IMG/VR virus record: IMGVR_UViG_3300037751_000382
Coordinates: 2,619-66,618 of that record
Direction: 5' to 3' (one strand)
Length of the DNA stretch: 64,000 nucleotides
From: a virus
Lineage: Duplodnaviria; Heunggongvirae; Uroviricota; Caudoviricetes
In this document: positions 2,575 to 58,659 of the stretch, in pieces
How the letters are laid out: each line of letters starts with the position of its first letter
Numbering within the stretch: position 1 is the stretch's first letter
Program-made: the position numbers and the translations under genes
The notes under the pieces: model-generated
The model's input: the letters and a program-made list of their open reading frames with translations, nothing else
Database searches by the model: none
What the model was told of the DNA's origin: nothing

Positions 2575-3124
2575 ATGAAAAAGTGTTCAGATTGTCACGA
2601 AATCAAATCAGCGGAAATGTTCTCAAAAGCTAGTTCTAAAAAAGATGGTTTACATAATATCTGTAAAAATTGTGATGTAGAAAGAATTAGGAAATATCGT
2701 AAAAATAATCCTGAAAAAGTTAAAGAAACTCGTCAAAAATATTATAAAAATAATATAGAAAAAATTAGAGAAACCCAGCAAAAATATTATACAAATAATA
2801 TAGAAAAAATTAGAGAAATCCATCAAAAATATTATAAAAATAATGCTGAAAAAATTAGAGAACAGAAGTTAATAAATAACTATGGGCTTACCACCAATGA
2901 TTATGAAAATCTTTTAAATTCTCAAAAGCATAAATGTGCAATCTGTGGTACAAATGATCCCGGCAAAAAATGGATGGAACATTGATCATGATCATGATAC
3001 AGATTTAGTGCGTGGTATTCTATGTACCGCATGTAACATAGGTATAGGTTTGTTTAAAGATTCTCCTTACACTTTACTTAGTGCGGTCAATTATTTACAA
3101 TTTACAAGTAAAATGATTATATAA
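2575..3124 (+). pseudogene. HNH homing endonuclease (endonuclease VII family) with a +1 frameshift in an A6 tract
   Basis: ORFs 2575-2985 and 2936-3124 are the two halves of one HNH: the zinc ribbon CSDCHEIK...CKNC plus KYYKNNxEKI repeats ...CAICGTNDPGKK, then NGWNIDHDHDTDLVRGILCTACNIGIGLF. The frames meet at the A run 2965-2970. Removing one A restores PGKNGWNIDHDHD, matching paralogs. Confidence 0.6.
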
Positions 3125-3600
3125 TGAGTAAAACACTTAGGAAACTGGTTTATGCGTCCATTACGATTATTACAATTATTGCGATGGTGGAAGGAATTCA
3201 AAACCATTTTGGTAAAACCAACATCATTCAAAGAATTGTTGGTGCTGATAACCCGTTTGACCCATCTATCCCACTCCCTAATGGACCTGCTGAAGTACCC
3301 CAGGTTACCAGTGAAGTCACAATTACAACCTACACTGCAAAATGGTGCGCCGCCTGTCATCAATTTAAACCAGAACTCGAAAAACTCAGAAAACTTGGAT
3401 ACTCAGTCACATACATTGACGTTGACGAAAACCAAGAAAACGCTGACAAAGAAAAGGTCTTATCGCTCCCTTTTACAAAGATTACGAGCGACACGGGGAA
3501 AAAAGTGACTTTTTATGGGTTTCAAAGTAGTGATCAAATCATTGAAATGATTAAGCAATTGACAAGTAATAATGAACCAAATAACTCTGAACATAATTAA
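3124..3600 (+). CDS. membrane-anchored thioredoxin-fold protein (WCxxC)
   Basis: N-terminal TM helix ASITIITIIAMV. WCAACH redox motif followed by a thioredoxin-like layout. Confidence 0.5.
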   Translation: MSKTLRKLVYASITIITIIAMVEGIQNHFGKTNIIQRIVGADNPFDPSIPLPNGPAEVPQVTSEVTITTYTAKWCAACHQFKPELEKLRKLGYSVTYIDVDENQENADKEKVLSLPFTKITSDTGKKVTFYGFQSSDQIIEMIKQLTSNNEPNNSEHN

Positions 3601-3859
3601 TTGTGGAGCAATAGTAGCTGTAATAGCTACTGTAATTTCGTTTTCTAATTTGTTTACACCGATTAGGGAAAAATTACCTTATTTAAAGGGTCTGTTTTAT
3701 TGCCCATTGTGTCTTAGTTACTGGATTTCATTACCTATTACATTGTTACTTAGTGAAATAAAATACTGTTTCCTAGTAATTTTGATCAGTAATATAATGA
3801 CACTGTTAATCGTATTGTTATATAATCAGATAAATATATTTGAGAATGAGGAAAAATAA
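3572..3859 (+). CDS. small integral membrane protein (2-3 TM; holin-like candidate)
   Basis: 95 aa, hydrophobic segments AIVAVIATVISF, WISLPITLLL, FLVILISNIMTLLIVLL, charged C-terminus. Confidence 0.3.
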   Translation: MNQITLNIINCGAIVAVIATVISFSNLFTPIREKLPYLKGLFYCPLCLSYWISLPITLLLSEIKYCFLVILISNIMTLLIVLLYNQINIFENEEK

Positions 3860-4146
3860 TGGCACAACGTGTGATAGATGCAGAGCTAAAACCTAGAGGA
3901 TACGAACAATTAGACTCATTAGCTACAGCAACAGGACTTTCCAATGTGCCAAATGGTGCTATTGGAGCACTTCTGCAAGCTGAAGACCAATTTATCCGAT
4001 GGAGTGATGCAATAGTCCCTACTACCTCATTAGGTATGGTGTTAGCCGCTGGCGACACGATATGGTACGTTGGAAGCCTCGCCAAGATAAAATTCATCGA
4101 AATGGCTGCTTCTGCTAAATTAAATGTCTCTTATTACTCCTTGTAA
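3859..4146 (+). CDS. hypothetical protein
   Basis: Intact ORF tightly packed between neighbours. Confidence 0.3.
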   Translation: MAQRVIDAELKPRGYEQLDSLATATGLSNVPNGAIGALLQAEDQFIRWSDAIVPTTSLGMVLAAGDTIWYVGSLAKIKFIEMAASAKLNVSYYSL

Positions 4147-5118
4147 ATGTTACGACTCTTTAAACGATATACCAGTAACAAAGAAACCTTTAGAAATTAC
4201 TCTAAAGCTAATGCTGCCTATTTAAAAGCAACCAATACTACTTACTTAGTAACAGAAAACGCAGCAACACAAGATGGCCCAATCACAGTTACTGGTTGGT
4301 TTAAAATAGATATAGTTGGCGGAACCAAACCAATATTTTGGATCGGTGATAAGGATCAAGCCAATGAATATAAAGGGATATTTGTTACTGGTGGTGGAAT
4401 TTACAGGGTAATTTCTATCAATGCCACTGTTGCTCAAGGTTTATCTGATATAGCTGGTACTTGGAATGATGGAGGTTGGCATTTTTTTGCCGGAGTATGG
4501 ACCTCAAATACCAGTAGGCATGGACGTTTAGATGACACAGTTAGCTCGGCCAATACTAATAATGTAACTAGAACCGCTAATTATGACCGTACATCACTTG
4601 GATCACACTTAGATAGTACACCCGTTTATTCTCAGGCCACGGCTCTAGATAATATTACGCTATGGAATAGTGAACTAACTAATGATGAACTTACTTGGTT
4701 ACGCGATAACCAGACTCCAACATTATATTATGATTTACAATCTCAACAAGGATCACCAAATGTACCGGACACAACTAACCTAAAAGGTTTCTGGTCACTT
4801 GATGAAAGGCACGGTCCAAGAAAAGACTTTTCATCCTCTCGATTAGATATGGCTATGGTTAGAGGAACAGGATTAAGTGATTTTGATGATGTCATTATAG
4901 CTGTTCCTGGTAAAAACACAAAAAGAAATGCAAGAGCATATAATGATCTAGTTCTCAGTGATTTAGTTGATTGGGCATGGGGAGGAATAGGAACAGAGAC
5001 ACTTAATTTTAGTCAAACTATCGATCTTACAGGTACAACTAACCTGTCGTGGGCAGGTATAGTATCAAGTCAGTTAACATTAAACCATATAGCAAATTAT
5101 GAGGTTATTACTCCATGA
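4147..5118 (+). CDS. concanavalin-A-like lectin/LamG-fold domain protein
   Basis: WNDGGWHFFAGVWTS ... pattern typical of LamG/Laminin_G_3 domains. A related domain sits in the C-terminus of 16097-17578. Confidence 0.4.
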   Translation: MLRLFKRYTSNKETFRNYSKANAAYLKATNTTYLVTENAATQDGPITVTGWFKIDIVGGTKPIFWIGDKDQANEYKGIFVTGGGIYRVISINATVAQGLSDIAGTWNDGGWHFFAGVWTSNTSRHGRLDDTVSSANTNNVTRTANYDRTSLGSHLDSTPVYSQATALDNITLWNSELTNDELTWLRDNQTPTLYYDLQSQQGSPNVPDTTNLKGFWSLDERHGPRKDFSSSRLDMAMVRGTGLSDFDDVIIAVPGKNTKRNARAYNDLVLSDLVDWAWGGIGTETLNFSQTIDLTGTTNLSWAGIVSSQLTLNHIANYEVITP

Positions 5119-5435: not shown

Positions 5436-5755
5436 TTTTAGAGTGCCCTTTTAGAGGTTTACATAGAGTAGGTTACACATGTTACGATCAACATGGAGAG
5501 CTATATGGAGGTAGCTCAAGTTTTTCTAGCAAAATTGAAATAGAAGTACCTGACTCCGTAATTTCTGTTTTAGTTAAAGTTATGGATCAAGGTAACACTA
5601 TTACAAGTGCTCATCTTTGGGAAAACAATAAATGGAAGATGGTGGAATTAGATGATATGGATAAATTGATCGAAAGACTCTCTAAACCAAAGAAACAATT
5701 ACCTCCGAAAAAGTTAGACATGAACAAGTATCCGTTTACAACAATAGATGGCTGA
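5432..5755 (+). CDS. hypothetical protein
   Basis: ORF overlapping both neighbours by 4 nt (translational coupling). Confidence 0.3.
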   Translation: MILECPFRGLHRVGYTCYDQHGELYGGSSSFSSKIEIEVPDSVISVLVKVMDQGNTITSAHLWENNKWKMVELDDMDKLIERLSKPKKQLPPKKLDMNKYPFTTIDG

Positions 5756-10777: not shown

Positions 10778-10786
10778 ATCATAGCT

Positions 10787-11240
10787 ATGAAACAATGCAC
10801 TAGGTGTAAGGAAATAAAAGAGAAAAAAGAATTTTCAAAAAAACAACGCTATGAAAGATAGGTTGAGTTCATATTGTAAACAGTGTATAAAAATTAAATA
10901 TTCAACGTATTATAAACACAATAAAACAAAAGAAACGAAACGAAAACGAACACATTTCCATAAAAATAAAGAAACTGAACGAGCGCGTCCAAGAAAATAT
11001 CTATACGGTATTGATCAAAATGAATTTGACCAACTTTTTAAGAAACAAAATTTCAGTTGTGCTATCTGTAAAACTACTGAAATAGGTAAGTTATGGTGGT
11101 GTGTTGATCATGATCACGAGAGTAACTGTGTTCGAGGTATTTTGTGTCACAGTTGCAATTGTGGACTTGGTATGTTTAAGGACAGAGCAGAAAACTTACG
11201 TGTAGCAGCTGATTATTTAGACTATTTTAACAGTAAGTGA
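10787..11240 (+). pseudogene. HNH homing endonuclease (endonuclease VII family) with a +1 frameshift in an A7 tract
   Basis: Short ORF 10787-10861 (MKQCTRCKEIKEKKEFSKKQ...) carries the family zinc ribbon. The downstream frame 10851-11240 continues KDRLSSYCKQC ... FSCAICKTTEIGKLWWCVDHDHESNCVRGILCHSCNCGLGMF. Removing one A from 10837-10843 joins them as FSKNNAMKDRLSSYCKQC. Confidence 0.55.
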
Positions 11241-12635: not shown

Positions 12636-12841
12636 TTGGGGTGTTGTTTAAACCAATAGTAGTAACAATTTTGGAGATTAAAAAATGAGTATTTTTACAC
12701 TGCCGGATTTGGCACTGTTTGCAAATAGCAATGATCCGATGTTCCCGGAACAATGGGCTTGAATTTTGGGTCCCTTACACAGTAATGTGTAAGTAAAAAA
12801 ATGGGCTATATGCTGGAACCTCCTGTTAAGCAAAAAGTACT

Positions 12842-13366
12842 ATGAATAAATCAAGTGAAAATCTTTTTGATAAGGACAATCAGCAGGGAAGGAAAGAAAT
12901 TTCCCCCTCAACGACTACACGCCCATCTCCTAAGAAATTAAGTACAAAAAACATGGAAGGATACCATTTTGATGTTATAAAACGTCGATGGGTAAGAACA
13001 GTAAAAGATGGAAAAGTTTGTTGTAGAGACTGTAAAGAATGGAAAACAGTTGAAAATTTTCCGTGGGCCAAACGTAGCACACAAAGATTATCACAATATT
13101 GCAGAAATTGTAAACGATTTTATAAAGCTGCAAAACGCTACAATATAACAGTTGAAGAAGTTAAGAAACTTTATAGCGCGGAAACTTGTGATTGTTGTGG
13201 AGAAAATTTTCATAATCAAACTCATCAACATATCCATCATTTAAAAGATAGTGTTATTGGAACACTTTGCTTTTACTGTAATTTAATACTTAAAGATGAA
13301 TCACCACAACAGTTACATAGACTTAAGAGTTGTGTTGATTTCATTGAAAATAGGATGAAGATATAG
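12842..13366 (+). CDS. divergent HNH endonuclease of the same zinc-ribbon/endonuclease VII family
   Basis: CCRDCKEWKTVENFPWAKRS...CRNC ribbon plus CDCCGENFHNQTHQHIHHLKDSVIGTLCFYCNLIL. Confidence 0.5.
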   Translation: MNKSSENLFDKDNQQGRKEISPSTTTRPSPKKLSTKNMEGYHFDVIKRRWVRTVKDGKVCCRDCKEWKTVENFPWAKRSTQRLSQYCRNCKRFYKAAKRYNITVEEVKKLYSAETCDCCGENFHNQTHQHIHHLKDSVIGTLCFYCNLILKDESPQQLHRLKSCVDFIENRMKI

Positions 13367-13736
13367 TCTGAACACTATGGAAACATAGTGAGGTAAGCAG
13401 AAATGTCTTGCCCCGTCCAATAGGATGAGTAACAAACTTGCAAGAGTCATTGGCTATCCTTGAAGAAAACATGGTTTCCTAAATTATTGGCTAGACCATG
13501 TAAAACGCAACTATATGCGGGAAACACTGGTTAAGACAAAAGTACGAACGCTAAATTTAACTTACAAGTAACAAAGAATGAATTTACAAATGTTTAGCAC
13601 ATGTAACAATCTTTTGTATACAGTCAATCCGCAGGAAAGACCTATCAGTACGGAAACTGAGCCGGAATCCTCAGAGACTACACGTTGCGAAACTTTTAAG
13701 GTATAGAAACCTTTAGAGTTTATGATATAGTCCGAT

Positions 13737-13774
13737 CTGCATGGGGACATGCAGAATTGAACAGAAATGTTCAA
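13737..13774 (+). promoter_or_regulatory. two adjacent 7-bp-stem hairpins with GNRA tetraloops in the capsid-gene leader
   Basis: ctgcatg-GGGA-catgcag, then aa, then ttgaaca-GAAA-tgttcaa, ending 28 nt upstream of the ATG at 13802. Confidence 0.5.
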
Positions 13775-13801
13775 TCGCTGTTTATAACAGTAGTAACATA
13801 A

Positions 13802-15106
13802 ATGATGCCATTCCTCGTTCACACGGACTTTAGTGATGAGGTCGCAAATGAAGGAGATATTGTTAACACCCGGCGTCCTGCCGAGTTCGTAACAAAGCGT
13901 AAGGTTGACGGTGATACGGTTGTGGCACAAGATGCCAATACAACCAACGTGCAAATCCCCCTGGATCAGCATGTTTATGTCACCTATGTGATCCATGACG
14001 GCGAGTTTTCTAAGTCTTTCCAAGACTTGGTTAATATGTTTGTTCGTCCGGCGTCGATGCAAATTTCTCGGTCAGTGGACAGGATTCTTTGTGGTCAAGC
14101 CCCTCAATTCCTGGCCAATTCGGTTGGACGGCTTGAGGAAATGACTTCCTCGAATGCAAAAGACTTCCTGATTGCAGCTGACCAGAAGCTGAGCGAGAAT
14201 AAGGCGTATATGGAGGGACGTAGCCTAGTTCTTTCACCGGCTTCTCGTGCCGATCTTCTGGGCACTGAGTTGTTTGTAGCGGCTAACACTCGTGGTGATG
14301 GTGGGGTTGCTCTTGAGCAGGCTCGCTTGGGCCAACTTTATAGCTTTGTGACCTATATGGACCAAAATGTTCCGTTCCGCACCCGGACTACAGCGGAAAC
14401 GGCGTCTGGTAACCATAACACTGGGGCTGCAGCTGGGGCTACAGGTAACATTGCCATGGTGGTGGCGAGTTATGTCGTGAAGGTTGGAGAGTACATTTGG
14501 ATTGAGAGTGAAGGTCAAGCCCACGAGATTAAGGCTGAGACCAATGCAGCTGGTGATACTACTGGTATTACTTTGGTTAATCCTTATGTAAATACAGTGG
14601 CTGCTGGCTCTGATCTGCTTGTTTACAAGGCGGCAGATGTCAACGGTGCATATGCTTCTGGCTATTCCAAGGCAATTCTGATGGATGGCTGGGCCGCGAA
14701 CACTGGGCCGATTGTCGGTCAAATCTTGTCCTTTGGAACAAGTAACGGAAGCGATCGTCACACCTATACCATTATAGAAACGACTGCTGACATTTCGACA
14801 AGGCATTATGTTTGGTTAGATCGGCCACTTGAAGCTGCTTTAGCTGACAATGATCTTGCGTTCCCTGGTCCTGCGGGAAGCTTTAACCTTGCTTTCCATC
14901 GGGACGCTATTGCTCTTGTGAGCCGTCCTTTGGCACTGCCGTCTAGCAATACTGGTGTTCAGGCTGGTTTGGCTGTTTACAACGGTGTTGGGATGAGAGT
15001 CACAATGCAATATGATAGCTCTATTCAAGGCACTCGTGTGACGCACGATATTCTGTGTGGCACTCAGGTTTTGGATACGAACTTAGGTTGCGTTCTGCTT
15101 GGTTAA
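13802..15106 (+). CDS. major capsid protein (candidate)
   Basis: 434 aa after the scaffold gene. Visibly higher GC and GC3 than the rest of the window. Followed by a strong intrinsic terminator. Confidence 0.55.
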   Translation: MMPFLVHTDFSDEVANEGDIVNTRRPAEFVTKRKVDGDTVVAQDANTTNVQIPLDQHVYVTYVIHDGEFSKSFQDLVNMFVRPASMQISRSVDRILCGQAPQFLANSVGRLEEMTSSNAKDFLIAADQKLSENKAYMEGRSLVLSPASRADLLGTELFVAANTRGDGGVALEQARLGQLYSFVTYMDQNVPFRTRTTAETASGNHNTGAAAGATGNIAMVVASYVVKVGEYIWIESEGQAHEIKAETNAAGDTTGITLVNPYVNTVAAGSDLLVYKAADVNGAYASGYSKAILMDGWAANTGPIVGQILSFGTSNGSDRHTYTIIETTADISTRHYVWLDRPLEAALADNDLAFPGPAGSFNLAFHRDAIALVSRPLALPSSNTGVQAGLAVYNGVGMRVTMQYDSSIQGTRVTHDILCGTQVLDTNLGCVLLG

Positions 15107-15398: not shown

Positions 15399-16100
15399 AT
15401 GCGTAAATTAAACAATTTAACAGGTCAAATTTTCGGTAAACTTACTATTCTTGAACGATCAGAGAATAAACCTAATTATCCAAATGCTCAATGGTTATGT
15501 AAATGTGAATGTGGAAACACTACAATTGTTAGTTCTACAAATTTGATACACGGAACAACTAAAAGTTGTGGTTGTCTAAGAGGTAAGAAAAGAATTAAAG
15601 ATTTAACAGGCCAAACTTTTGGAAAACTTGTCGTTATTGAAAGAGTAGAAAATAAATCTACTAGTACAAATGCTCAATGGTTATGTAAATGTGCGTGTGG
15701 GGATATGACAATTGTTAGTTCCGGAAACTTACCTAAGACTAAAAGTTGTGGTTGTTTAGTAGGTCAAAAACACGGGCTATCAAGTACGTTTGAATACAGG
15801 ATGTGGAATTCAGCTAAAAACAGAGCAAAGAAAGAGAATATTCCGTTTACTTTGAGGCTTGAAGATTTAATTGCGTTAAAATTTCCGGACAAGTGTCCAA
15901 TTTTCAACATACCATTAAAACAAAATAAACAATTTCATAAGGACAATAGTCCAAGTTTAGATAGAATTATACCTGAACTAGGGTATGTTAAAGGAAATGT
16001 AGCAATAATAAGTTGGAAAGCTAATAGTTTAAAAAGTAATGGAACTATTGATGATTTCTTAGCAATTATTACCTATTTACGAAAACATCAAGTACAATGA
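15399..16100 (+). CDS. HNH_3-type homing endonuclease with duplicated N-terminal motif
   Basis: Two copies of LTGQxFGKLxxxER...AQWLCKCxCGxxTIVSSxNL...KSCGCL. C-terminal SLDRIIPELGYVKGNVAIISWKAN (HNH_3 signature). Confidence 0.6.
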   Translation: MRKLNNLTGQIFGKLTILERSENKPNYPNAQWLCKCECGNTTIVSSTNLIHGTTKSCGCLRGKKRIKDLTGQTFGKLVVIERVENKSTSTNAQWLCKCACGDMTIVSSGNLPKTKSCGCLVGQKHGLSSTFEYRMWNSAKNRAKKENIPFTLRLEDLIALKFPDKCPIFNIPLKQNKQFHKDNSPSLDRIIPELGYVKGNVAIISWKANSLKSNGTIDDFLAIITYLRKHQVQ

Positions 16101-33083: not shown

Positions 33084-33707
33084 TCAAGTTACTAATGACT
33101 TCAAAAGATATTTAGTCGCAGTTTCAGTGATCGTCGGCGAATTTTTAAGCATTCCAATTCCTACATTACAACAGTTACAGAGTATACCACGAATACTCCT
33201 TGTTTCATGACAGTGATCAATACACCAACCCTTTTTACCTGGTTCTAAAGTACCGCAAATCTTACAAGTTCCATTTTGCTCTTGCAACATTTTATTAAAA
33301 CACTCATTGTCAACCCCATATTTTCTTAGTTTCTTTTGAGCTGAAATCTTATCTTTATTCTCTTGATTGTATTGTTTTGTTTGGGTTAAAATTTTCTCTC
33401 TATTATTTTGATAGTGTTCCTTCTTTTTGGCTTTGACTTTTTCTTCATTATCATGTCTATATTGTTTCATTTGGATTGAAATTTTCTCTTTATTATCTTG
33501 ACAGTATTTCTTTTGTCGGGATACTAATTTTTCTTTATTATTGTGTCTATATTGTTTAACACGAGCTAAAATTTTTTCTTTATTAGTTTGATAGTAGTTC
33601 TTACTTCGGGCACTAATTTTCTCTTTATTATCTTGATAGTATTGCTTCTTGTAAGCCACCACTTTCTCTTTATTGTCGTGATCTTGATCTTGATCTTTTG
33701 TGTTCAT
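33084..33707 (-). CDS. HNH homing endonuclease (endonuclease VII family) with six KxYYQxNKEKI repeats and no zinc ribbon
   Basis: GTCKICGTLEPGKKGWCIDHCHETRSIRGILCNCCNVGIGMLKN. Repeats encoded by roughly 60-bp DNA repeats at 33330-33690. Confidence 0.65.
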   Translation of the reverse strand: MNTKDQDQDHDNKEKVVAYKKQYYQDNKEKISARSKNYYQTNKEKILARVKQYRHNNKEKLVSRQKKYCQDNKEKISIQMKQYRHDNEEKVKAKKKEHYQNNREKILTQTKQYNQENKDKISAQKKLRKYGVDNECFNKMLQEQNGTCKICGTLEPGKKGWCIDHCHETRSIRGILCNCCNVGIGMLKNSPTITETATKYLLKSLVT

Positions 33708-33756
33708 CTATACATTCTCTCTCTCTTTCTCTAATGTTTAAAATTTTCAAGTTAAT

Positions 33757-40990: not shown

Positions 40991-41462
40991 TGTAGTTTTA
41001 GTGATGTTTTCTGATTATGATTTAGCTACTTTAGCTACATTAACACATACAATGTTTGGGCAAAGTATTTGCAGGGAAGCCGATAAAAAAGAATTACCAG
41101 AAAAGTTACATAATTTAGAATGTTTAAAGAATTTTGGTGAGAATCAGAACATAAATAAAATTTATTTTGTCTCTTTCTTGATTTTAGCTGATTCGCGTGA
41201 TATACTTGATCTATTAACTATTTGCAATGGATTATCCTTTATACATTCTCCTACACGTAATAGGGACTGTGAGACTTTAATAGTGACCGGTAGTTTATGT
41301 GCTTGGGATCAAGTTTTGGTTAATGCTTTTAGTGTAGTTAGGCGGTATGAAATAGAAAATATATTTAAAACTATTTATAAAGAAGTAGAAAAACTCGGCA
41401 TTTATTCTTTCAAAATTCCTAAACCAATTTCCACTGTTAGTGCAATTGAGTATATACAATGA
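40983..41462 (+). CDS. hypothetical protein
   Basis: 159-aa ORF coupled to the downstream HNH. Confidence 0.3.
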   Translation: MNNVVLVMFSDYDLATLATLTHTMFGQSICREADKKELPEKLHNLECLKNFGENQNINKIYFVSFLILADSRDILDLLTICNGLSFIHSPTRNRDCETLIVTGSLCAWDQVLVNAFSVVRRYEIENIFKTIYKEVEKLGIYSFKIPKPISTVSAIEYIQ

Positions 41463-42016
41463 AAACTTGTTCCAAATGTAAACTGTCTAAAGATACTAAT
41501 GAATTTCATAAGAATAAAAGTAGAAAAGATGGCTTTAATTGTCAATGTAAAGAATGTATAAAAGAATATAGTAATCGCCCAGACGTAAAACAACATAACA
41601 AAGAATATATTAAGGAATATGGTAAGGGATATCGTGATCGCCCAGAAGTAAAACAACGTAACAAAGAATATAATAAAAAATATTATAAGGAATATTTAAA
41701 TCGTCCAAAAGTAAAACAACATAAAAAAGAATATTATAAGGAACGTGGGTATAACACAAAATATGGTTTAACATTAGAAACAGTAAATCAATTAAAGATT
41801 TTGTTGGAAAATAAATGTTGTCTTTGTGGTTGTTTAACAGAAGAATTAGTAATTGACCATGATCATAATACAAATGAAATTAGAGGATTACTTTGCCATA
41901 ATTGTAATTTAGGGTTAGGAAGATTAGGTGACACAATTGAAGGACTTACAAAAGCTATAAAATATCTACAAAGTAAACTTGGTCAAAAATTACTTTTAAT
42001 GATAGGAAACTCATGA
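41459..42016 (+). CDS. HNH homing endonuclease (endonuclease VII family), intact
   Basis: CSKCKLSKDTNEFHKNKSRKDGFNCQCKEC ribbon, KEYxKxY repeats, CCLCGCLTEELVIDHDHNTNEIRGLLCHNCNLGLGRLGD. Confidence 0.7.
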   Translation: MKTCSKCKLSKDTNEFHKNKSRKDGFNCQCKECIKEYSNRPDVKQHNKEYIKEYGKGYRDRPEVKQRNKEYNKKYYKEYLNRPKVKQHKKEYYKERGYNTKYGLTLETVNQLKILLENKCCLCGCLTEELVIDHDHNTNEIRGLLCHNCNLGLGRLGDTIEGLTKAIKYLQSKLGQKLLLMIGNS

Positions 42017-46484: not shown

Positions 46485-46658
46485 ATGAGCAGAATTAGTG
46501 ACGGCGAAGTGTATCGTATTGATGATGAAGGAAGTATTATTTATATGGCAGATGTAATTGCCGAAATGATGGGTTATAAGAAACCTTTTGTAGTTCATTA
46601 TTTTGATGGCAATCCTTTAAATAATACACGTGAAAATTTACGAGTAATGGAGTTATAA
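46485..46658 (+). CDS. mini HNH-motif protein (57 aa)
   Basis: VVHYFDGNPLNNTRENLRVM resembles the H-x-D-G-N-x-x-N-N...NL core of HNH_3 nucleases. Confidence 0.3.
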   Translation: MSRISDGEVYRIDDEGSIIYMADVIAEMMGYKKPFVVHYFDGNPLNNTRENLRVMEL

Positions 46659-48442
46659 TGGCCAAGAAAGACTTAATACTTTACCCCGCAGATTTTACTA
46701 AAGCAACACCGATAGCAAAACGTAACCTATTCCTGAGGAAGTTACTTGATCAAGATTATCATACAATTGCTCAATCTATTATCAAGTATCTTATTTTCTT
46801 TGAGGAAAATCACTATTTTGCCTATAACCTTGAAGATCAATTAAGATTTGATGAGTTTGTTTCAGCAGTATTTTCTACTATTGTTGACCCTAATTTTGTT
46901 CCGAATGATAATGATGCAAAGTGCTTGGTAGCATGTAACCATTTATTCAGTAATGTTGTAGCTACTTCTTCCTACGGCACTACTGATGGTCCCTTGCTCC
47001 ATATTCTTAAGCAACAGAACAACGCCGCTAAAGTGTTATTTCTTTATAACTCACGGTGTAAAATTAAAATTGATCTTAAAAAGTTTTTTGATGTATCTCC
47101 ATTAATTGCTTCTATTTGGTATAATACTTTTATGTTGGGAACAAGTTGCCCTTCTCTGATCCAACAGGAGAATCTATTCTTACATTTAGAAAATATGGAT
47201 GAACGCTGGACACCTCCTAATAGGCACGTGAGTTCATTGTATTTTACTTGTACATACATGAATCCTATAAATGATAGACGGGTAAAAGGAATAATTAATA
47301 AATCGCTTAAGAATCATTTAACTGTAAAGATAGTTAATGAACCTAATCCAAATAAAATTGCCATTGTTACTAGTAAATGGCATCGTAATCACGCGGTGTA
47401 CAAAAGCGCAGGTCCATTAGTAGAACAATTAAGAGGTCACTATGATTTAACTCTTATTCATTTAGGTTGGAAACTTCCTGATAATTTGTGTACAGAAGGT
47501 TTTAATAAAGTGATACGGGCAGCTTTTCCTCAGGAAACAAATAACAGTGATCTTAGATTGCCGGATGAATTGTTGAAAAATGATTTTGGTTTAATCTATT
47601 TCCCAGATATCGGCATGACGGACGAGTGTACGTGGATGAGCAATATTAGAATGTCACCTATTCAAGTTGTAGGGTATGGTCATCCAGCGACAACTGGCGA
47701 TAACAACGAAATTGATTATTTTCTTGGCGGAGATATCGAGAAAGATGTAACAGATTGTTATTCAGAGAAAATGATACTTATTCCAGGGTTAGCTCAACAT
47801 CCTGCTTGGCCAACATATGCACGGAAGTATAACTGGAAAGAGAATGAAGCTGTCCAGATCAATTGTGTCTGGGGTCCCGATAAGTTTTCATATACACTGT
47901 TAAAGGTACTTCAAAGAATTAGTCAATTATCTACTGTTCCTCATACTTATAATTTTTATCCTTCACCAGGTATAAATCGTTATGCTGGATTTGTGCCTTT
48001 TAAAAAGGACATCCAATCTATACTCCCTAATTCAATTATTCACGGTGATAAAGAATATTATGACTATATGGAGAGTGCTGAGAAGGGGGACTTTAGTATT
48101 AACTCTTTTATTTTTGGAGGATTTAATACTATTATAGAGTCTTTATTCTTAGGATTACCTGTAACGACTATAGAAGGTGATAGATTTTACAATAAGGCTG
48201 CTAGTTTCTTACTGCGAAAGATTGGTTTCGGAGAACTTAGTTCCACAAATATTAATGAGTTTATTAATATCACAGTTAGGATGATAAATGATAAAGATTA
48301 CAGAGGAGGAAAAAGGAAGGAATTAGCTGAAATGAATATTAAGGAATTATTATTTTGTGACCCTGGAGATAGTTTCAAAAGAGCTATTGATTATATAATT
48401 GCTAATCACCCTATAAAAGAAAAGTGTACACTGATATCATGA
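46658..48442 (+). CDS. GT41-family (O-GlcNAc transferase-like) glycosyltransferase
   Basis: IAIVTSKWHRNH, SPIQVVGYGHPATTG...IDYFLGGD...YSEKMILIPG and DFSINSFIFGGFNTIIESLFLGLPVTTIEGD...ASFLL align to OGT catalytic lobes ([61 protein letters not shown]..ASRVA). Confidence 0.65.
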   Translation: MAKKDLILYPADFTKATPIAKRNLFLRKLLDQDYHTIAQSIIKYLIFFEENHYFAYNLEDQLRFDEFVSAVFSTIVDPNFVPNDNDAKCLVACNHLFSNVVATSSYGTTDGPLLHILKQQNNAAKVLFLYNSRCKIKIDLKKFFDVSPLIASIWYNTFMLGTSCPSLIQQENLFLHLENMDERWTPPNRHVSSLYFTCTYMNPINDRRVKGIINKSLKNHLTVKIVNEPNPNKIAIVTSKWHRNHAVYKSAGPLVEQLRGHYDLTLIHLGWKLPDNLCTEGFNKVIRAAFPQETNNSDLRLPDELLKNDFGLIYFPDIGMTDECTWMSNIRMSPIQVVGYGHPATTGDNNEIDYFLGGDIEKDVTDCYSEKMILIPGLAQHPAWPTYARKYNWKENEAVQINCVWGPDKFSYTLLKVLQRISQLSTVPHTYNFYPSPGINRYAGFVPFKKDIQSILPNSIIHGDKEYYDYMESAEKGDFSINSFIFGGFNTIIESLFLGLPVTTIEGDRFYNKAASFLLRKIGFGELSSTNINEFINITVRMINDKDYRGGKRKELAEMNIKELLFCDPGDSFKRAIDYIIANHPIKEKCTLIS

Positions 48443-48954
48443 AAACTATTAAATTAACTAAAGGTAAAGAAGCCATTATTGATAAGAAAAATTATGAACA
48501 TTTCATGAAATGTAAATGGAGTTATAGCGGTAATGGATATGCTATTAGACGTTTAACAATAGCCGAACGAAATTTAAAGCAAATTAAATGTAAACATGTT
48601 GGTATGCATAGAGAAGTACTTGAATTAATGGGATTTAAAAATTTTCAAGATTCGGAACACATAAATTTTAATAAACTAGATAATAGAGAAAGTAATTTAC
48701 GGATAGCTACACGTAGTCAAAATATTGCACACAGGCCAAAGTTTAATGGTTGTGTTTCAATATATAAAGGGGTATCTTGGCAAAATGACAAACAAATATG
48801 GAGGGCAAGAATAGCCCCAAATAGAAAAGAGATTTTCTTGGGCACTTTTAAATGTGAAGAAGACGCCGCTAAGGCATATGATAAAGCTGCATTAAAAATT
48901 TATGGTAAATTTGCCGTTTTAAACTTTCCAGGAGAATTAAATGTTAACATTTGA
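48439..48954 (+). CDS. HNH endonuclease with C-terminal AP2 DNA-binding domain
   Basis: AP2-like YKGVSWQNDKQIWRARIAPNRKEIFLGTFKCEEDAAKAYDKAA. Paralog of the partial gene at 63563. Confidence 0.55.
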   Translation: MKTIKLTKGKEAIIDKKNYEHFMKCKWSYSGNGYAIRRLTIAERNLKQIKCKHVGMHREVLELMGFKNFQDSEHINFNKLDNRESNLRIATRSQNIAHRPKFNGCVSIYKGVSWQNDKQIWRARIAPNRKEIFLGTFKCEEDAAKAYDKAALKIYGKFAVLNFPGELNVNI

Positions 48955-54374: not shown

Positions 54375-56849
54375 TTGAGACGAAATTGCATTTATTTAGA
54401 TACAGAAAGTGTTGGGTTCCATGGTTTAATGGTTCTTATGCAATATGCGTATGATGATGGCCCCATTTCTTTATATGAGCCATGGTTAAATTATCCAAAA
54501 GATACACTTGATCTAATTGAAAAGATATTGGATAAAACGTTAATAGGTTTCAATTTATGTTTCGATCATTTTCATCTTTGCAAATTATATACTACATTTA
54601 GATTGTTACCATTAAATGAGTTACCCGTTAATCTCCCAGTGTTACAGATAGCTGAAGCGGAAAGAGATGGGAGAGATGGTCCGTGTTTAAAGCCAAGAGG
54701 TGCCCTTGACCTTATGCTTCACTCACGAAAAGGTCCTCACCAATTCCTAATGAGCAGAAATGAAGTAAGAATAAGAAAAATTCCTATTCTTATAGCTGAG
54801 GTTCTTAGAGAGGAATTAGAAAAAAGGATCATCTTTGATCCAATTCTTTCAGCTAAATGGGGGATATATGATCGACAACGTAAGGGTATAGTGGACCCAG
54901 AGTTCAAGGACATAGCTCTTAAATTTCATCCTGATAGAGGTTTAAAGTCATTAGCTAAACATTGTTTAGGACTTGACCCTGAGTTTAATTCGTTTCAGGA
55001 AATTTATCCCGAACGGGAATATAAACTGTTTGAATTAGGTTATATACCGTTTGCAACGGGTGCTTCTGATGAAGAATGGAAAGGTTATTCCCGATCGGGA
55101 GAATTTAAAGGTTACACGTGGCCGAAACATATTCACAAGGACATCGAACACTGGAGAAGTAATAATGATGCTAGGAGATATGCTGAAGATGATGTTAAGT
55201 ATACTCGATTACTTGATGAATATTTTGGTTATCCTGACCCCAATGATGATGACTCTATTCTTGCTTGCATGGTGGCTGCTGTAAGATGGCACGGGTTTAA
55301 AATTGATAGTGAAAAGATAAAGGAGTTACTGACTAGTGCAGAGCAATTAATTAAATTGTCACCGGTTAATGTTAATAAACCAACTGAGGTACGGCAATAT
55401 ATTAAAGAGGTAATGGACCCTAGCGAGTGTTTAGCGCTCGATGAAAGCACTAAAAAGGAAAATTTAGAAAAAATTCGGGATAAATTAGTAGTTGAGGAAG
55501 AAGAAATTTGTATAAAGTGTATGGGCGCAGGTTGCCCACGTTGCGACGGCAAAGGCAACCTGTATCCTGGGCCAATGTTAGCATCACTAAGGGCTGGGGA
55601 GATATTAAAGATTAAGTCAGCTGTTAAGGAAGCTGATATGTTTAAAAAGTTACTGGCTGCAGGGCGATTTCACGCTTCATTCAAAGTGATTGGCACGCTA
55701 TCTTCGAGAATGGCGGGCGGGGATGGTTTAAACGCTCAAGGGATAAAAAAGAGCAAAGAAGTAAGAGAGTCATTTCCCTTGGCTTGGGATGGGATGATCC
55801 TGAGTGGAGGAGACTTTGAATCTTTTGAGGTCACAATAGCAGATGCCGTGTTTAAGGATAAAGGTATACGAAGAGATTTATTAACAGGTGTAAGTATACA
55901 TGCCGTGATGGCCACTAAGTTGTATAGCAAGACCATGGAAGAGGTTTTAGCGTCCAAAGGATATGCGGATGGTGGAACCATTGATATGTACACCCAAGGC
56001 AAGCGAGCGATCTTTGGAACACTTTACGGAGGTGACGCGGGCACGATACATAGAAAATTATCTATTCAAATGAAGATTGCAGAGAAGGCATTTAATGAAT
56101 TCCAAGTACAGTATCCAGGGGTAAAGGAAGAGAGAGATAGGAATGCAAAATTATTTAGTGCTCTTATACAGAAAGAAGGCATTGGAACACGCATTGAATG
56201 GAATGAGCCAATTGATTATAGTGAGACATTTTTAGGATTTAAAAGGTACTTTACACTTGAGAATCAGGTAATAAAGGAATTGTATATCCTTGCTCAAACA
56301 ATTCCTGCTTACTGGAATTTGAAAGACGAGAACGGGGACCCTATTAAATTAGTGCGGAGTGATAGGGATCAAACTATAGGGGGCGTTGTCGCCAGCGCAT
56401 TATACGGAGCGGCATTTCAGATACAGAGTAGTAATATTAGGGCAGCTAATAACCACCTGATCCAGTCGCCAGGGGCACAAATTACCAAGGCAGTACAACG
56501 AGCTATCTGGGATATTCAACCGATTGGGATTAATGAGTTCATTGTAGCCCCTATGAACGTGCATGACGAAGTATTGAGTGTGACTAATCCTGATTATATA
56601 ACTATTGTAAAAGAAGTAGTTAAAAATAAAGTCGAAGAATATCGTCCCTTTGTCCCTTTAATTGGAATGCAGTGGAACTCTGGAATGAAATCTTGGGGCG
56701 AAAAAATTGACAGAGATGATCCTAGAGTGTATAATATAGAACCAGATAAAGTTAAGATTTTAAGCGACATGGACGATCCTGACTGTGATGACCTGATGAC
56801 ATTTGAACAAGACCTTGATGAGTGGGAGAGTGAAGATGAGGAAGCCTAA
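54375..56849 (+). CDS. family A DNA polymerase with 3'-5' exonuclease domain
   Basis: Exo I YLDTESVGF. Pol motif A DFESFEVTI, motif B KRAIFGTLYGG, motif C VHDEVL. Confidence 0.8.
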   Translation: MRRNCIYLDTESVGFHGLMVLMQYAYDDGPISLYEPWLNYPKDTLDLIEKILDKTLIGFNLCFDHFHLCKLYTTFRLLPLNELPVNLPVLQIAEAERDGRDGPCLKPRGALDLMLHSRKGPHQFLMSRNEVRIRKIPILIAEVLREELEKRIIFDPILSAKWGIYDRQRKGIVDPEFKDIALKFHPDRGLKSLAKHCLGLDPEFNSFQEIYPEREYKLFELGYIPFATGASDEEWKGYSRSGEFKGYTWPKHIHKDIEHWRSNNDARRYAEDDVKYTRLLDEYFGYPDPNDDDSILACMVAAVRWHGFKIDSEKIKELLTSAEQLIKLSPVNVNKPTEVRQYIKEVMDPSECLALDESTKKENLEKIRDKLVVEEEEICIKCMGAGCPRCDGKGNLYPGPMLASLRAGEILKIKSAVKEADMFKKLLAAGRFHASFKVIGTLSSRMAGGDGLNAQGIKKSKEVRESFPLAWDGMILSGGDFESFEVTIADAVFKDKGIRRDLLTGVSIHAVMATKLYSKTMEEVLASKGYADGGTIDMYTQGKRAIFGTLYGGDAGTIHRKLSIQMKIAEKAFNEFQVQYPGVKEERDRNAKLFSALIQKEGIGTRIEWNEPIDYSETFLGFKRYFTLENQVIKELYILAQTIPAYWNLKDENGDPIKLVRSDRDQTIGGVVASALYGAAFQIQSSNIRAANNHLIQSPGAQITKAVQRAIWDIQPIGINEFIVAPMNVHDEVLSVTNPDYITIVKEVVKNKVEEYRPFVPLIGMQWNSGMKSWGEKIDRDDPRVYNIEPDKVKILSDMDDPDCDDLMTFEQDLDEWESEDEEA

Positions 56850-57464
56850 AGATCATATAACGCCTGCCGGATATAAGTGGTGCAGTGGCTGTAATAAAGA
56901 TGTACCTGTAAATGTGTTCCATAAGGATAAAAATGCTAAAGATGGGTTAAGTTATACATGTAAAAAATGTACAAGAACATACGATCAAAAATACTATAAA
57001 AATAATTCAGATAAAATAAAAGAACAGTGTCAAAAATATGGCCGAAATAATATAGATAAAAGGAAAGAATATAGTAGGAAATATCGTCAAAATAATTTTG
57101 AAAAATAAAAGAAACAAACCGAAAATATAATTATGGAATCACCAATAATGATTTTGATAAAATATTAAATTGTCAAGGAAATTGTTGTATTTTATGCGGG
57201 TCAACTAGCCCTGGTTCAAAACTTAATTGGTGTATTGATCATGACCATAATGATCTTATTAAAGGTAAAAATATTCGCGGAATTTTATGTCATGAATGCA
57301 ATTTTTTACTAGGCAACATTGAAAAATTTGCAAAGAAACTTAATCTTGAAACAAGTGTTGCCCTTTGTGTTATTGTTGATTATCTTAGAAACGGCAAAGA
57401 AAAAGTACAAAACATTTTAAAGGAGAACGAAAGTGGATTTAAACCAACGGAAGTCGTGGCTTAG
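56836..57464 (+). pseudogene. HNH homing endonuclease (endonuclease VII family) with a -1 frameshift in an A5 tract
   Basis: N-terminal part YKWCSGCNKDVPVNVFHKDKNAKDGLSYTCKKC...RKYRQNNFEK stops at 57108. The C-terminal part (YGITNNDFDKILNCQGNCCILCGSTSPGSKLNWCIDHDHNDLIKGKNIRGILCHECNFLLG) is open in the -1 frame from 57102 and has no ATG. Adding one A to 57101-57105 fuses them as NNFEKIKETNRKYNYG. Confidence 0.55.
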
Positions 57465-57808
57465 TGGGCTTTTCACAAATCAGCTAATGGCCCTGGCCGC
57501 CATGCACAATATTAAGGATTATATGGTAAAGACTCGTAGGGAACTAACGGAACAATTAAGTGAAATAGAAGGAGTTGAAATACCGACAAAAGCATGAAAC
57601 CAATTAATTTTCCAAGACAAAATTGTGTTTTCGGTAAACATCAACCGGAATATTTACCTTTACCAGTTTACAGGTCTGATGAAGGCGAGGTGATTTCTTG
57701 TTGGAAACTTACCTGTAAAGAGCGTCTTTATCTACTATTTACAGGTAAACTGTATCTTAGGCAATTAACTTTTAATGAGCCACTACAACCACAATTACCT
57801 CAAGTAAG

Positions 57809-58057
57809 ATGTCCACTATGAATATAGACCAATTAATCGCTAAATTTAAATTAATCTATGGAGATTTTTATGTGACCTTTTTCCGTGAGACTACGCATAC
57901 AGGTGACCTAGAAATAAGATTTAAGGAAGGGTTCCCACCAGTAATTATATTACCTGTGGTTAATTTTAATCCTGATTTTAATGATATTTCTCCTAGTATG
58001 GATGATCCTGGTTGGGAGTTAGAACCTAATTATATTGCTTCTATTGGTTTAAAGTGA
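57809..58057 (+). CDS. hypothetical protein
   Basis: 82-aa ORF, ATGA-coupled to the HNH gene. Confidence 0.3.
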   Translation: MSTMNIDQLIAKFKLIYGDFYVTFFRETTHTGDLEIRFKEGFPPVIILPVVNFNPDFNDISPSMDDPGWELEPNYIASIGLK

Positions 58058-58659
58058 ATAAAAATATAGTGCCCGTTGGCTATAAACGATGTAGTTGTTG
58101 CCATAATGAATTACCGACAGCTCAATTTTCTAAAGATAAAAGTAGAAAAGATGGGTTAAATTGTCAATGTAAACAATGTCGTAAAGAATATAAAAACAAA
58201 TATTATAAAACCCATCATCAACAAAACAAAGATTATTATATAGCCAATAAAATGGCTATTAGAAACTATCAAAATGAATATAATAAAAATTATCGTAAGA
58301 CAAACAAAAATTATTTTAAAGAATATTCGTTAAAATATAATTTTAACCTCACTTTAACGGAGCGTGATTTGATCTTTTCCCAACAAGGAAACTGTTGTGC
58401 GTTATGTGGGAGTTTAACACCAAAAAGCAAACGTGATTGGTGTGTTGACCATGATCATAAAATTGTGGACAAAAGGAACTCAATCAGAGGTATTCTTTGT
58501 CTCAAGTGTAATATGAACATTATAGGGATGGTCGAAAATTTTGCTAATGAACAAGGTTTAGAAATTGACGTGGCAATAGCAAAAATCGCCGATTATCTAA
58601 ATAACCAAGTTTCAAGAACACAAAATTTTTTAAACAATATACCACATAAACGTGATTAA
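58054..58659 (+). CDS. HNH homing endonuclease (endonuclease VII family), intact
   Basis: YKRCSCCHNELPTAQFSKDKSRKDGLNCQCKQC ribbon, NxYxKNY repeats, CCALCGSLTPKSKRDWCVDHDHKIVDKRNSIRGILCLKCNMNIIGM. Confidence 0.7.
   Translation: MNKNIVPVGYKRCSCCHNELPTAQFSKDKSRKDGLNCQCKQCRKEYKNKYYKTHHQQNKDYYIANKMAIRNYQNEYNKNYRKTNKNYFKEYSLKYNFNLTLTERDLIFSQQGNCCALCGSLTPKSKRDWCVDHDHKIVDKRNSIRGILCLKCNMNIIGMVENFANEQGLEIDVAIAKIADYLNNQVSRTQNFLNNIPHKRD

What the first reader, a model, noticed from the sequence alone, without database searches (positions are those of the whole stretch)
2575..58659. Seven-member endonuclease VII-type HNH family with shared zinc ribbon and variable KxYYxxN repeats scattered through the genome
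Copies at 2575, 10787, 12842, 33084 (minus), 41459, 56836 and 58054 share a C-terminal core C-x2-C...W-C-(I/V)-D-H-D-H...R-G-(I/L)-L-C-x2-C-N-x-G-(I/L)-G (the T4 endonuclease VII HNH fold). Most also share an N-terminal ribbon C-x2-C...F-x-K-D-K-S-x-K-D-G-L...C-K-x-C. The copies differ in the number of lysine/tyrosine repeats between the two domains: 0 to 6 units, encoded by roughly 60-bp DNA repeats. They are inserted between unrelated genes in both the morphogenesis and replication modules. Adding the HNH_3 gene (15399), two HNH-AP2 genes (48439, 63563) and a mini HNH (46485) gives at least 11 HNH genes in 64 kb. This looks like an actively proliferating free-standing homing endonuclease family whose variable repeat array may set DNA target spacing.
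Basis: seen in the sequence. Interest (0 to 1): 0.55.

Follow-up and report, generated by a model that had tools for sequence, protein, structure and literature searches.

The report
Seven homing-endonuclease genes in one phage
An uncultivated phage carries seven old, diverged copies of a known selfish-nuclease family (Endo VII-type homing endonucleases): six sit between genes, one lies inside a self-splicing intron that splits the capsid gene, and three are broken by one-base slips, so it is ordinary in kind but unusually dense.

Summary
The seven loci are real. A family HMM finds exactly these seven in the window, and all have the Endo VII (PF02945) ββα-metal core. They belong to the described DHHRN/F-CphI homing-endonuclease family, which is widespread in phages. 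The mobile-element reading holds. Copies B, C and D, and the HNH gene at 15399, are precisely absent from 73–85%-identical relatives whose flanking genes abut. A, E, G, K and I are absent from more distant relatives.

- Copy C is not free-standing. It is encoded in a 681-nt group I intron. A second, ORF-less 328-nt intron lies 36 nt downstream. The two introns split the major capsid gene into three exons, and C belongs to a conserved "IHH" variant lineage always found in that intron.
- A, B and F each carry one ±1 frameshift at a poly-A run, identical in three independent assemblies.
- Paralogues are only 26–44% identical, so this is accumulation, not recent proliferation.
- The repeat unit is 45 bp (15 aa, one helix). 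It is 63 bp only in E. Arrays expand in situ.

The idea that repeats set target spacing is untested. Verdict: new members of a known kind, of modest interest.

The parts
2575..3124 (+). Copy A: ribbon + 4 canonical 15-aa units + DHDH nuclease. Free-standing between g1540 and a thioredoxin-like gene. Frameshifted, with one A too many in the A6 run at 2965-2970.
   Evidence: The same lesion is present in L083 and L084.
10787..11240 (+). Copy B: ribbon + degenerate repeats + DHDH nuclease. Free-standing. Frameshifted, with one A too many in the A7 run at 10837-10843, inside the ribbon.
   Evidence: Window 10771-11240 is absent from L001 and L002, where the flanking genes are 3 bp apart.
12685..12759 (+). 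Major capsid gene exon 1 (25 aa, MSIFTLPDLALFANSNDPMFPEQWA).
   Evidence: Colinear with the uninterrupted L001 capsid gene.
12760..13440 (+). Group I intron 1 (681 nt), which carries the copy C ORF. Its boundaries are GGGCU|UGAAUU at the 5' end and AACUUG|CAAGAG at the 3' end.
   Evidence: Rfam RF00028 split match: 12754-12927 (46.3 bits) plus 13232-13388 (26.8 bits). Exon junctions were defined against L001. Orthologous introns in L017 and L036 pass the gathering score.
12842..13366 (+). Copy C: intron-encoded ribbon + Endo VII-like nuclease of the 'IHH' variant. It has no K/Y repeats, and both ends of its ORF overlap intron core helices.
13441..13476 (+). Major capsid gene exon 2 (36 nt, QESLAILEENMV).
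13477..13804 (+). Group I intron 2 (328 nt, ORF-less). Its boundaries are AUGGUU|UCCUAA at the 5' end and UAAAUG|AUGCCA at the 3' end.
   Evidence: RF00028 match of 68.8 bits (gathering score 50), E 2.4e-15, full model.
13805..15106 (+). Major capsid gene exon 3. The spliced product is 470 aa.
33084..33707 (-). Copy D: no ribbon, 7 canonical 15-aa units (90-bp two-unit periodicity) + DHCH nuclease. Intact and free-standing.
   Evidence: Window 33036-33755 is absent from L087. AF2 model pLDDT 89.3; its top fold matches are T4 Endo VII and Hpy99I.
41459..42016 (+). Copy E: ribbon + three 21-aa (63-bp) repeats + DHDH nuclease. Intact; its start and stop overlap the neighbouring genes; it lies upstream of thyX.
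   Evidence: No counterpart next to thyX in L091 or L090.
56836..57464 (+). Copy F: ribbon + about 3.5 units + DHDH nuclease with a loop insertion. Its start overlaps the DNA polymerase 3' end. Frameshifted, with one A too few in the A5 run at 57101-57105.
   Evidence: An orthologue at the same site in L086/L088 has a different frameshift and fewer units.
58054..58659 (+). Copy G: ribbon + degenerate helical repeats + DHDH nuclease with a loop insertion. Intact. Its closest relative is F (44%).
   Evidence: AF2 model pLDDT 91.6.
15399..16100 (+). An unrelated HNH endonuclease gene (phrog_374/3322), free-standing.
   Evidence: Absent from L001.
46485..46658 (+). A 57-aa HNH_3-like fragment, probably the remnant of an HNH-AP2 gene.
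   Evidence: Absent from L090, L091 and L092.
48424..48954 (+). HNH_3 + AP2 endonuclease gene, free-standing.
   Evidence: Absent from L090 and L092.
63563..64000 (+). HNH-AP2 endonuclease gene, cut by the window end.

Best explanation
The seven genes are diverged members of the Endo VII-motif (DHHRN, F-CphI-type) homing-endonuclease family. They accumulated in one phage genome through independent invasions.

Six copies (A, B, D, E, F, G) are free-standing genes wedged into intergenic junctions. The seventh (C) is the endonuclease of a mobile group I intron in the major capsid gene. A second, ORF-less group I intron lies 36 nt downstream.

Inferred mechanism: during co-infection, the ββα-metal nuclease, stabilised by a Cys4 zinc site, nicks or cuts the allele of a related phage that lacks the element, close to the insertion point. 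Recombinational repair from the carrier genome then copies the gene (or the intron plus gene) into the broken site. The N-terminal zinc ribbon and the Lys/Tyr-rich helical repeats are inferred to be the DNA-binding part. The repeat arrays grow and shrink by local tandem duplication.

A, B and F are most likely recently inactivated copies. Each has a single ±1 slip at a poly-A run, which fits the degeneration phase of the homing cycle.

Shown here: family membership by sequence and fold, exact indels against relatives, intron identity and exon junctions, the frameshifts, and in-situ repeat expansion. Inferred: cleavage activity, targets, and actual homing.
For: Family and fold:
- PF02945 and PHROG 'endonuclease VII' match.
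- The family's invariant C, C, D, H, R, C, C, N columns are present.
- The motif is C-terminal, as in the 'endonuclease clade' of PMC6083498.

Mobility:
- Precise absences in relatives. B: window 10771-11240. C plus both introns: 12760-13804 except the 36-nt exon. H: about 15377-16174. All three are missing from L001 (78-85% nt identity).
- D (33036-33755) is missing from L087.
- E, K and I are absent from L090, L091 or L092, and F and G from L090.
- Other relatives carry family members at different sites (L009, L027, L064).
- C-type genes recur at the same capsid site in L017, L032, L036 and L041, at the second site in L013 and L033, and as an ORF-deleted intron in L026.

Introns:
- RF00028 scores 68.8 bits for intron 2, and a split hit covers intron 1.
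- U precedes each 5' splice site and G ends each intron. The spliced ORF is colinear with L001 (96% identity over the first 90 aa).

Age of the copies:
- Paralogues are 26-44% identical.

Frameshifts:
- They are identical in three independent assemblies.
- A-runs of 5 or more are 3.7-fold denser in these genes than elsewhere.

Repeats:
- Units A1-A3 are 80-93% identical at the nucleotide level, against 46-68% between genes.
Against: - No cleavage, homing or splicing was observed; everything functional is inferred.
- For A and G only distant comparators (about 40-60% aa identity) lack the gene. Closer ones were not found.
- F is present in the closest polymerase relative (L086/L088), so that site shows divergence of the gene, not presence/absence.
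- Each frameshifted copy has exactly one lesion and keeps every catalytic residue downstream. This is also compatible with expression by slippage.
- C lacks three of the five DHHRN signature residues, so its chemistry may differ.
Confidence: 0.8

Rival explanations
1. A, B and F are not dead. The poly-A runs act as slippage sites (RNA polymerase or ribosome) that yield a small fraction of full-length nuclease. That would throttle a toxic enzyme or make its expression phase-variable.
For: - All three lesions are ±1 at A5-A7 runs.
- Each copy has exactly one lesion and an otherwise intact downstream domain with all invariant residues.
- The lesions are stable across three independent assemblies.
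- The F-orthologue in L086/L088 is also off by one A, at AGAAAGG.
Against: - The required shifts differ in direction: A and B need one A fewer, F needs one more.
- The sites sit at non-homologous positions (nuclease, ribbon, end of the repeats).
- The L086 lesion is at yet another place, so no conserved recoding site exists.
- A5-A7 runs are short for efficient slippage (own knowledge).
- These genes have 3.7-fold more A-runs than the rest of the window, so random slippage mutations are expected there.
Confidence: 0.12
2. Some copies are domesticated and serve the phage, for example as a junction resolvase, a packaging helper, a host-DNA degrader, or a weapon against co-infecting relatives, and are not purely selfish homing genes.
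For: - T4 Endo VII is a resolvase with the same catalytic core.
- Intron endonucleases can mediate interference competition between phages (PMC11620839).
- The phage keeps at least four intact copies (C, D, E, G).
Against: - All seven have the motif at the C-terminus, as in the endonuclease clade. The resolvase clade has it at the N-terminus.
- Fold matches to T4 Endo VII cover only about 80-88 residues of the catalytic core, and no T4-like C-terminal dimerisation domain was found.
- Close relatives do without B, C and D, so those copies are dispensable.
- Three copies are frameshifted.
Confidence: 0.15
3. The family is proliferating within this genome by recent duplication and transposition-like spread.
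For: - There are seven copies in 64 kb, against roughly 9-12 in 1.17 Mb of relatives.
- F and G are each other's best match and lie about 600 bp apart.
Against: - Pairwise identity is 26-44%, and 22-49% within the nuclease domain.
- A, D and E have outside proteins as best hits, and B's best outside hit scores almost as high as its best in-genome hit.
- No DNA-level similarity between copies was seen beyond the repeats.
- Three copies are inactivated.
Confidence: 0.05
4. The frameshifts are homopolymer sequencing or assembly errors, and all seven genes are intact.
For: All three lesions are at homopolymers.
Against: - JGI contig Ga0395783_0002151 and two Logan assemblies from different SRA runs match the window at 99.995-100%, with the same run lengths at A and B.
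- The L086 (JGI) and L088 (ENA) assemblies share the frameshift in their F-orthologue.
- No other frameshift was noticed in the long ORFs (up to 1030 aa) that were compared with relatives.
- F's own lesion was not re-checked in an independent assembly.
Confidence: 0.03

Closest known systems
F-CphI / DHHRN homing-endonuclease family (cyanophage S-PM2 ORF177; PMC6083498)
   Same: - C-terminal Endo VII catalytic motif: CX2-4C, DH(D)H, R, CX2C-N.
- Found in phages both free-standing and intron-associated or intron-encoded.
- Proposed nick-then-cut homing.
- Six of the seven copies carry all the signature residues.
   Different: - The window proteins add an N-terminal Cys4 ribbon and a variable array of 15-aa (or 21-aa) Lys/Tyr-rich helices. 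The paper does not discuss these.
- There are seven members in one genome.
- C replaces D40, H43 and R54 (IHH…I).
- No biochemistry was done here.
T4 endonuclease VII (gp49), a Holliday-junction resolvase
   Same: - Same ββα-metal core and zinc site.
- Top structural match to the D model, with 28-31% identity over about 85 residues.
   Different: - In T4 the motif is N-terminal and is followed by a dimerisation/DNA-binding domain.
- In the window copies the motif is C-terminal, behind the ribbon and repeats.
- The genes are dispensable in close relatives.
Hpy99I restriction endonuclease (PDB 3FC3)
   Same: - Best solved-structure match by sequence (E 3.6e-6).
- It also shows a weak match to the N-terminal CxxC…CxxC segment.
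   Different: - It is a bacterial type II restriction enzyme paired with a methylase.
- It has no helical repeat array.
- It is not a mobile gene in a phage.
Intron-encoded Endo VII-motif endonucleases in phage group I introns (Yersinia phage Berlin, LUZ24, rV5-like phages; cited in PMC6083498)
   Same: An endonuclease of this superfamily inside a group I intron of an essential phage gene, with sporadic distribution.
   Different: - Those introns sit in DNA polymerase and other replication genes.
- Here the host gene is the major capsid gene.
- There are two introns 36 nt apart.
- The enzyme has the IHH variant motif.
Cluster J mycobacteriophages (PMC3706429) and Pectobacterium phage CB7 (PMC7344957)
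   Same: - Phage genomes with a capsid-gene group I intron plus many free-standing HNH or Endo VII-like genes.
- CB7 has 23 homing endonucleases covering about 7% of 143 kb.
   Different: - In the window, about 9% of 64 kb is HNH genes.
- Seven of the eleven come from one family.
- The LittleE capsid intron encodes a LAGLIDADG-related enzyme, not an Endo VII-type one.

Membership tests
DHHRN (Endo VII-motif) homing endonucleases, as defined in PMC6083498 | An N-terminal CX2-4C and a C-terminal CX2C that coordinate zinc around the active site. | tested here: met
   All seven copies have CxxC…CxxC(N). These columns are invariant in alignments A1 and A2.
DHHRN (Endo VII-motif) homing endonucleases, as defined in PMC6083498 | Signature residues D40, H41, H43, R54 and N62 (T4 numbering). 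| tested here: met
   Met in A, B, D, E, F and G (D has DHCH; only the non-essential D42 is changed). Not met in C, which keeps only H41 and N62 (I-H-H-L-K … V-I-G). That pattern is conserved in C-type orthologues.
DHHRN (Endo VII-motif) homing endonucleases, as defined in PMC6083498 | The motif lies in the C-terminal half (endonuclease clade). The resolvase clade has it N-terminal. | tested here: met
   The nuclease domain follows the ribbon and repeats in every copy.
DHHRN (Endo VII-motif) homing endonucleases, as defined in PMC6083498 | ββα-metal fold like T4 Endo VII and Hpy99I. | tested here: met
Homing endonuclease gene (functional definition) | Sporadic presence/absence at a defined site among related genomes. 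| tested here: met
   B, C, D and H are absent from 73-85% nt-identical relatives, with flanking genes abutting. E, K and I are absent from L090, L091 or L092, F and G from L090, and A from L003 and L068. Only distant comparators exist for A and G.
Homing endonuclease gene (functional definition) | Site-specific cleavage of the empty allele, and gene conversion in crosses. | not testable with these tools
   This needs purified protein and co-infection experiments.
Group I intron (Rfam RF00028) | A covariance-model score at or above the gathering score (50 bits). | tested here: met
   Intron 2 scores 68.8 bits over the full model. Intron 1 appears as a split hit of 46.3 + 26.8 bits around the ORF, each below the gathering score alone. 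Orthologous ORF-containing introns in L017 (58.6) and L036 (55.8), and the ORF-less one in L026 (53.6), pass it.
Group I intron (Rfam RF00028) | Canonical boundaries (U before the 5' splice site, G as the last intron base), with exon ligation restoring the host ORF. | tested here: met
   GGGCU|…CUUG| and AUGGUU|…AAUG|. The spliced 470-aa ORF is colinear with the uninterrupted L001 gene. A TGA stop follows exon 1 in unspliced RNA.
Group I intron (Rfam RF00028) | Self-splicing demonstrated. | not testable with these tools
   This needs RT-PCR or in vitro splicing.
T4 Endo VII-type Holliday-junction resolvase | N-terminal catalytic domain plus a C-terminal helical dimerisation/DNA-binding domain, aligning with gp49 over the whole length. 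| tested here: not met
   Only about 80-88 residues of the catalytic core align with 1EN7 and 2QNF. The domain order is reversed.

The most novel reading that the evidence does not exclude
The Lys/Tyr-rich 15-aa helices form a modular, rapidly evolving DNA-reading or spacer arm between the zinc ribbon and the nuclease. In-situ gain and loss of units retargets the enzyme to new sites. In addition, the single-base poly-A lesions in A, B and F are reversible switches (slippage-dependent expression) and not dead ends. Together these would make the family a self-diversifying, phase-variable nuclease arsenal used in phage-phage competition.
Probability: 0.08. Interest if true: 0.6.

Novelty: new member of a known kind. 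Interest (0 to 1): 0.3.

Why it matters
For annotation, the capsid gene of this phage lineage is mis-called unless the two introns are removed. Automatic calls start it at 13802 and lose 37 N-terminal residues.

For biology, the locus shows the homing cycle within one family and one set of relatives: intact genes, single-lesion genes, an ORF-deleted intron in L026, and empty sites. It also provides ready-made empty-site sequences (L001, L087) for cleavage assays.

The ribbon, helical-repeat and nuclease architecture is widespread in metagenomes (544 hits at E<=1e-10 among the candidates scored). It was not described in the papers I read or among the titles my searches returned. Its DNA-recognition logic is an open, testable question, of possible interest for engineering compact nucleases.

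Tried and rejected
- Megablast of the tape-measure gene against GenBank phages gave no match. The large terminase is under 27% identical to anything there, so no annotated close relative exists.
- IMG/VR scans with the DNA polymerase, the primase and g1540 found nothing. Scans with g60758 and g59015 found only 25-43% relatives.
- The single metagenome scan gave one 2.8-kb contig, L086.
- An exact look-up of g57809 found nothing. The A and G sites therefore lack close comparators.
- I considered that C was a decayed copy. I rejected this because the IHH motif is conserved in six diverged orthologues.
- I considered that D had lost its ribbon by truncation. This is not needed, because the indel against L087 leaves no room for one and ribbon-less homologues exist (P0004, P0015).
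- I looked for introns around the other copies. A sensitive Rfam scan of the whole window found none.
- Fold searches of the full-length models gave no informative match for the ribbon plus helical arm.

Full report
**Context.** The window is part of an uncultivated tailed-phage genome. It encodes a large terminase (5748-7433), portal (7435-9249), scaffold (11796-12635), major capsid protein, tape measure (20121-23213), primase (34157-36952, minus strand) and family A DNA polymerase (54375-56849). Nothing in GenBank phages is close. There is no megablast match, and the terminase is under 27% identical to anything there. Its own proteins occur on a 101-kb JGI contig.

**Checking the observation.**
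- All seven stated loci encode proteins of the Endo VII family. Pfam PF02945 matches six above its cut-off (copy A on its second ORF piece). Copy C (12842) matches below it, at E 7.5e-4.
- PHROG families annotated 'endonuclease VII' match every copy tested, C included.
- A family HMM run over the six-frame translation of the window recovers exactly these seven loci and nothing else below E 0.01.
- Three-frame translation shows that A, B and F are each split between two frames.
- The breaks are at poly-A runs: A6 at 2965-2970, A7 at 10837-10843 and A5 at 57101-57105.
- Removing one A (in A and B) or adding one A (in F) restores a full protein with ribbon, repeats and nuclease.
- The N-terminal CxxC…CKxC ribbon is present in six copies and absent in D.
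- The nuclease motif is DHDH in A, B, E, F and G, DHCH in D, and IHHLK in C.
- Tandem Repeats Finder gives a 45-bp period in A (2692-2862), D (33342-33632, with a 90-bp higher order) and F (56999-57113). Only E (41564-41739) has a 63-bp period. The '60-bp' description is therefore inexact.
- D has seven canonical units, A has four and F about three and a half. B and G are degenerate, and C has none.
- The four other HNH genes exist. The one at 46485 is only a 57-aa fragment.

**What the family is.**
- tblastn finds relatives in 162 GenBank phage records, generally annotated 'endonuclease VII' or 'HNH endonuclease'.
- The large protein collection gives 544 hits at E<=1e-10 among the candidates scored. 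Their lengths run from 116 to 316 aa. They carry variable numbers of (K/R)x(Y/W)xxNxEK units, and some have two ribbons or two nuclease domains.
- The invariant columns are C, C, D, H, R, C, C, N. This is the signature that Fang et al. used to define the DHHRN family around the characterised free-standing homing endonuclease F-CphI. In that paper the 'endonuclease clade' has the motif at the C-terminus and includes both free-standing and intron-encoded phage genes (PMC6083498).
- The closest solved structure by sequence is Hpy99I.
- The AlphaFold model of D (pLDDT 89.3) has one helix of about 14 residues per 15-aa unit next to a ββα core. The model of G (pLDDT 91.6) has a four-strand ribbon, two long helices and the ββα core.
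- The best structural matches are T4 Endo VII and Hpy99I, restricted to the catalytic core. The helical arm matches nothing solved.

**Presence/absence in relatives.**
- Loci fetched around capsid homologues include two close relatives, L001 and L002 (78-85% nt identity).
- In those relatives the genes flanking B are 3 bp apart. The window insert is 10771-11240.
- The genes flanking the HNH at 15399 also abut there, and the whole C region is missing.
- L087 (primase 80% aa identical) lacks window 33036-33755, which is copy D. The two flanking genes overlap there.
- More distant genomes lack other copies. L090, L091 and L092 lack E, K and I, and L090 also lacks F and G. L003 and L068 lack A.
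- Relatives carry family members at sites that are empty in the window: terminase/portal in L027, g16097/g17596 in L009, and upstream of the terminase in L064.
- Density is about 7 per 64 kb in the window, against 9-12 per 1.17 Mb in relatives.

**Copy C is intron-encoded.**
- Rfam finds a complete group I intron at 13438-13754 (68.8 bits, gathering score 50). It also finds a split match, 12754-12927 plus 13232-13388, that brackets the C ORF. No other intron signal exists in the window.
- The uninterrupted L001 capsid gene begins MSIFTLPDLALFANSNDAMFPEQWAQESLAILEENMVMPFLVH….
- In the window this sequence is split as follows: exon 1 at 12685-12759, intron 1 at 12760-13440 (681 nt, containing C), exon 2 at 13441-13476, intron 2 at 13477-13804 (328 nt, ORF-less), and exon 3 at 13805-15106.
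- Each 5' splice site follows a U and each intron ends in G.
- The spliced product is 470 aa and 96% identical to L001 over the first 90 residues.
- C's apparently conserved N- and C-terminal peptides correspond to intron core helices.
- Most of about 66 relatives are intron-less.
- Site 1 carries an intron with a C-type gene in L017, L032, L036 and L041, and an ORF-deleted intron in L026. Site 2 carries a C-type gene in L013 and probably in L033.
- The IHH motif is conserved in all of these. C is therefore a distinct, selected lineage that departs from the DHHRN signature at D40, H43 and usually R54.

**Age and dynamics.**
- Paralogues are 26-44% identical.
- For A, D and E the best hits are outside proteins. 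B's best outside hit scores almost as high as its best in-genome hit. Only F and G are each other's closest match.
- This argues for accumulation of old lineages, not recent proliferation.
- Repeat arrays do change locally. Units A1-A3 are 80-93% identical at the DNA level, against 46-68% between genes. D shows alternating unit types that match its 90-bp period.
- The F-orthologue in L086/L088 sits at the same polymerase-end site with about 0-1 units.

**The frameshifts.**
- L083 (JGI), L084 and L085 (two SRA runs) are 99.995-100% identical to the window and share the A and B lesions.
- L086 (JGI) and L088 (ENA) share a different one-A lesion in their F-orthologue.
- Assembly error is therefore unlikely.
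- These genes have 10.9 A-runs of 5 or more per kb, against 2.95 per kb elsewhere. Slippage mutations are the expected first lesion once selection for homing lapses.
- Because each copy has a single lesion and keeps all catalytic residues, slippage-dependent expression cannot be excluded. The lack of a conserved site or direction argues against it.

**Verdict.**
- This is a real and well-populated set of Endo VII-motif homing endonuclease genes: six free-standing, and one inside one of two closely spaced capsid-gene group I introns.
- Comparable situations are documented. Phage CB7 has 23 homing endonucleases, and Cluster J mycobacteriophages have a capsid-gene intron plus Endo VII-like free-standing genes.
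- The finding is therefore a new member of a known kind.
- Two modestly new details are the undescribed ribbon plus helical-repeat arm and the IHH intron lineage.

Noticed in passing
window 12685-15106: The major capsid gene is split by two group I introns only 36 nt apart. Automatic gene calls (ATG at 13802) lose the first 37 residues. The G of that ATG is the last base of intron 2.
   Followed up: yes
L026 1-260; L013 353-1189; L032 3359-4138: L026 carries the site-1 intron with the endonuclease ORF deleted, so that the N- and C-terminal peptides are fused. L013 and L032 have intron ORFs with two tandem ribbon+nuclease modules. L013's intron sits at the second capsid site.
   Followed up: partly
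L086 2567-2844 / L088 2794-3086: The F-type gene at the polymerase 3' end is only about 38-50% identical to window F, although the polymerase is 87% identical. It matches G slightly better than F in the nuclease domain. This means either rapid divergence or replacement by a different family member at the same site.
   Followed up: partly
window 42013-42690 vs L090 13858-14544: thyX lies next to copy E in the window and in L091, but sits downstream of the DNA polymerase in L090. This is a rearrangement near an endonuclease gene.
   Followed up: no
window 16697-16903: A 60-bp tandem repeat (3.5 copies, 80% matches) lies inside the 493-aa Laminin_G_3-like structural gene at 16097-17578. It is unrelated to the endonuclease repeats. 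This gene is much shorter or differently built in relatives.
   Followed up: no
window 310-402 and 712-774: 15/30-bp tandem repeats lie in small ORFs at the left end of the window (257-535, 705-1343), and 7-21-bp repeats lie in the gap at 1336-1381.
   Followed up: no
window 24475-25506 and 25503-26543: Two adjacent tail-region genes (343 and 346 aa) both match a single gene in L068 (39% and 37%), so they form a tandem paralogue pair.
   Followed up: no
proteins P0160, P0184, P0188, P0206: Some primase homologues in other phages are about 1240 aa instead of about 930 aa and carry a LAGLIDADG (PF14528) domain, so they probably contain inteins. The window primase has none.
   Followed up: no
window 33708-33780 (minus strand): Just upstream of D, a short out-of-frame peptide 'MKTIKLT*' is identical to the first seven residues of the HNH-AP2 protein at 48439. 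It may be chance or a remnant of another endonuclease gene.
   Followed up: no
the seven Endo VII genes: Their GC content is 27-32%, against about 31-42% for 2-kb windows of the genome, and A makes up 40-46% of the coding strand.
   Followed up: partly
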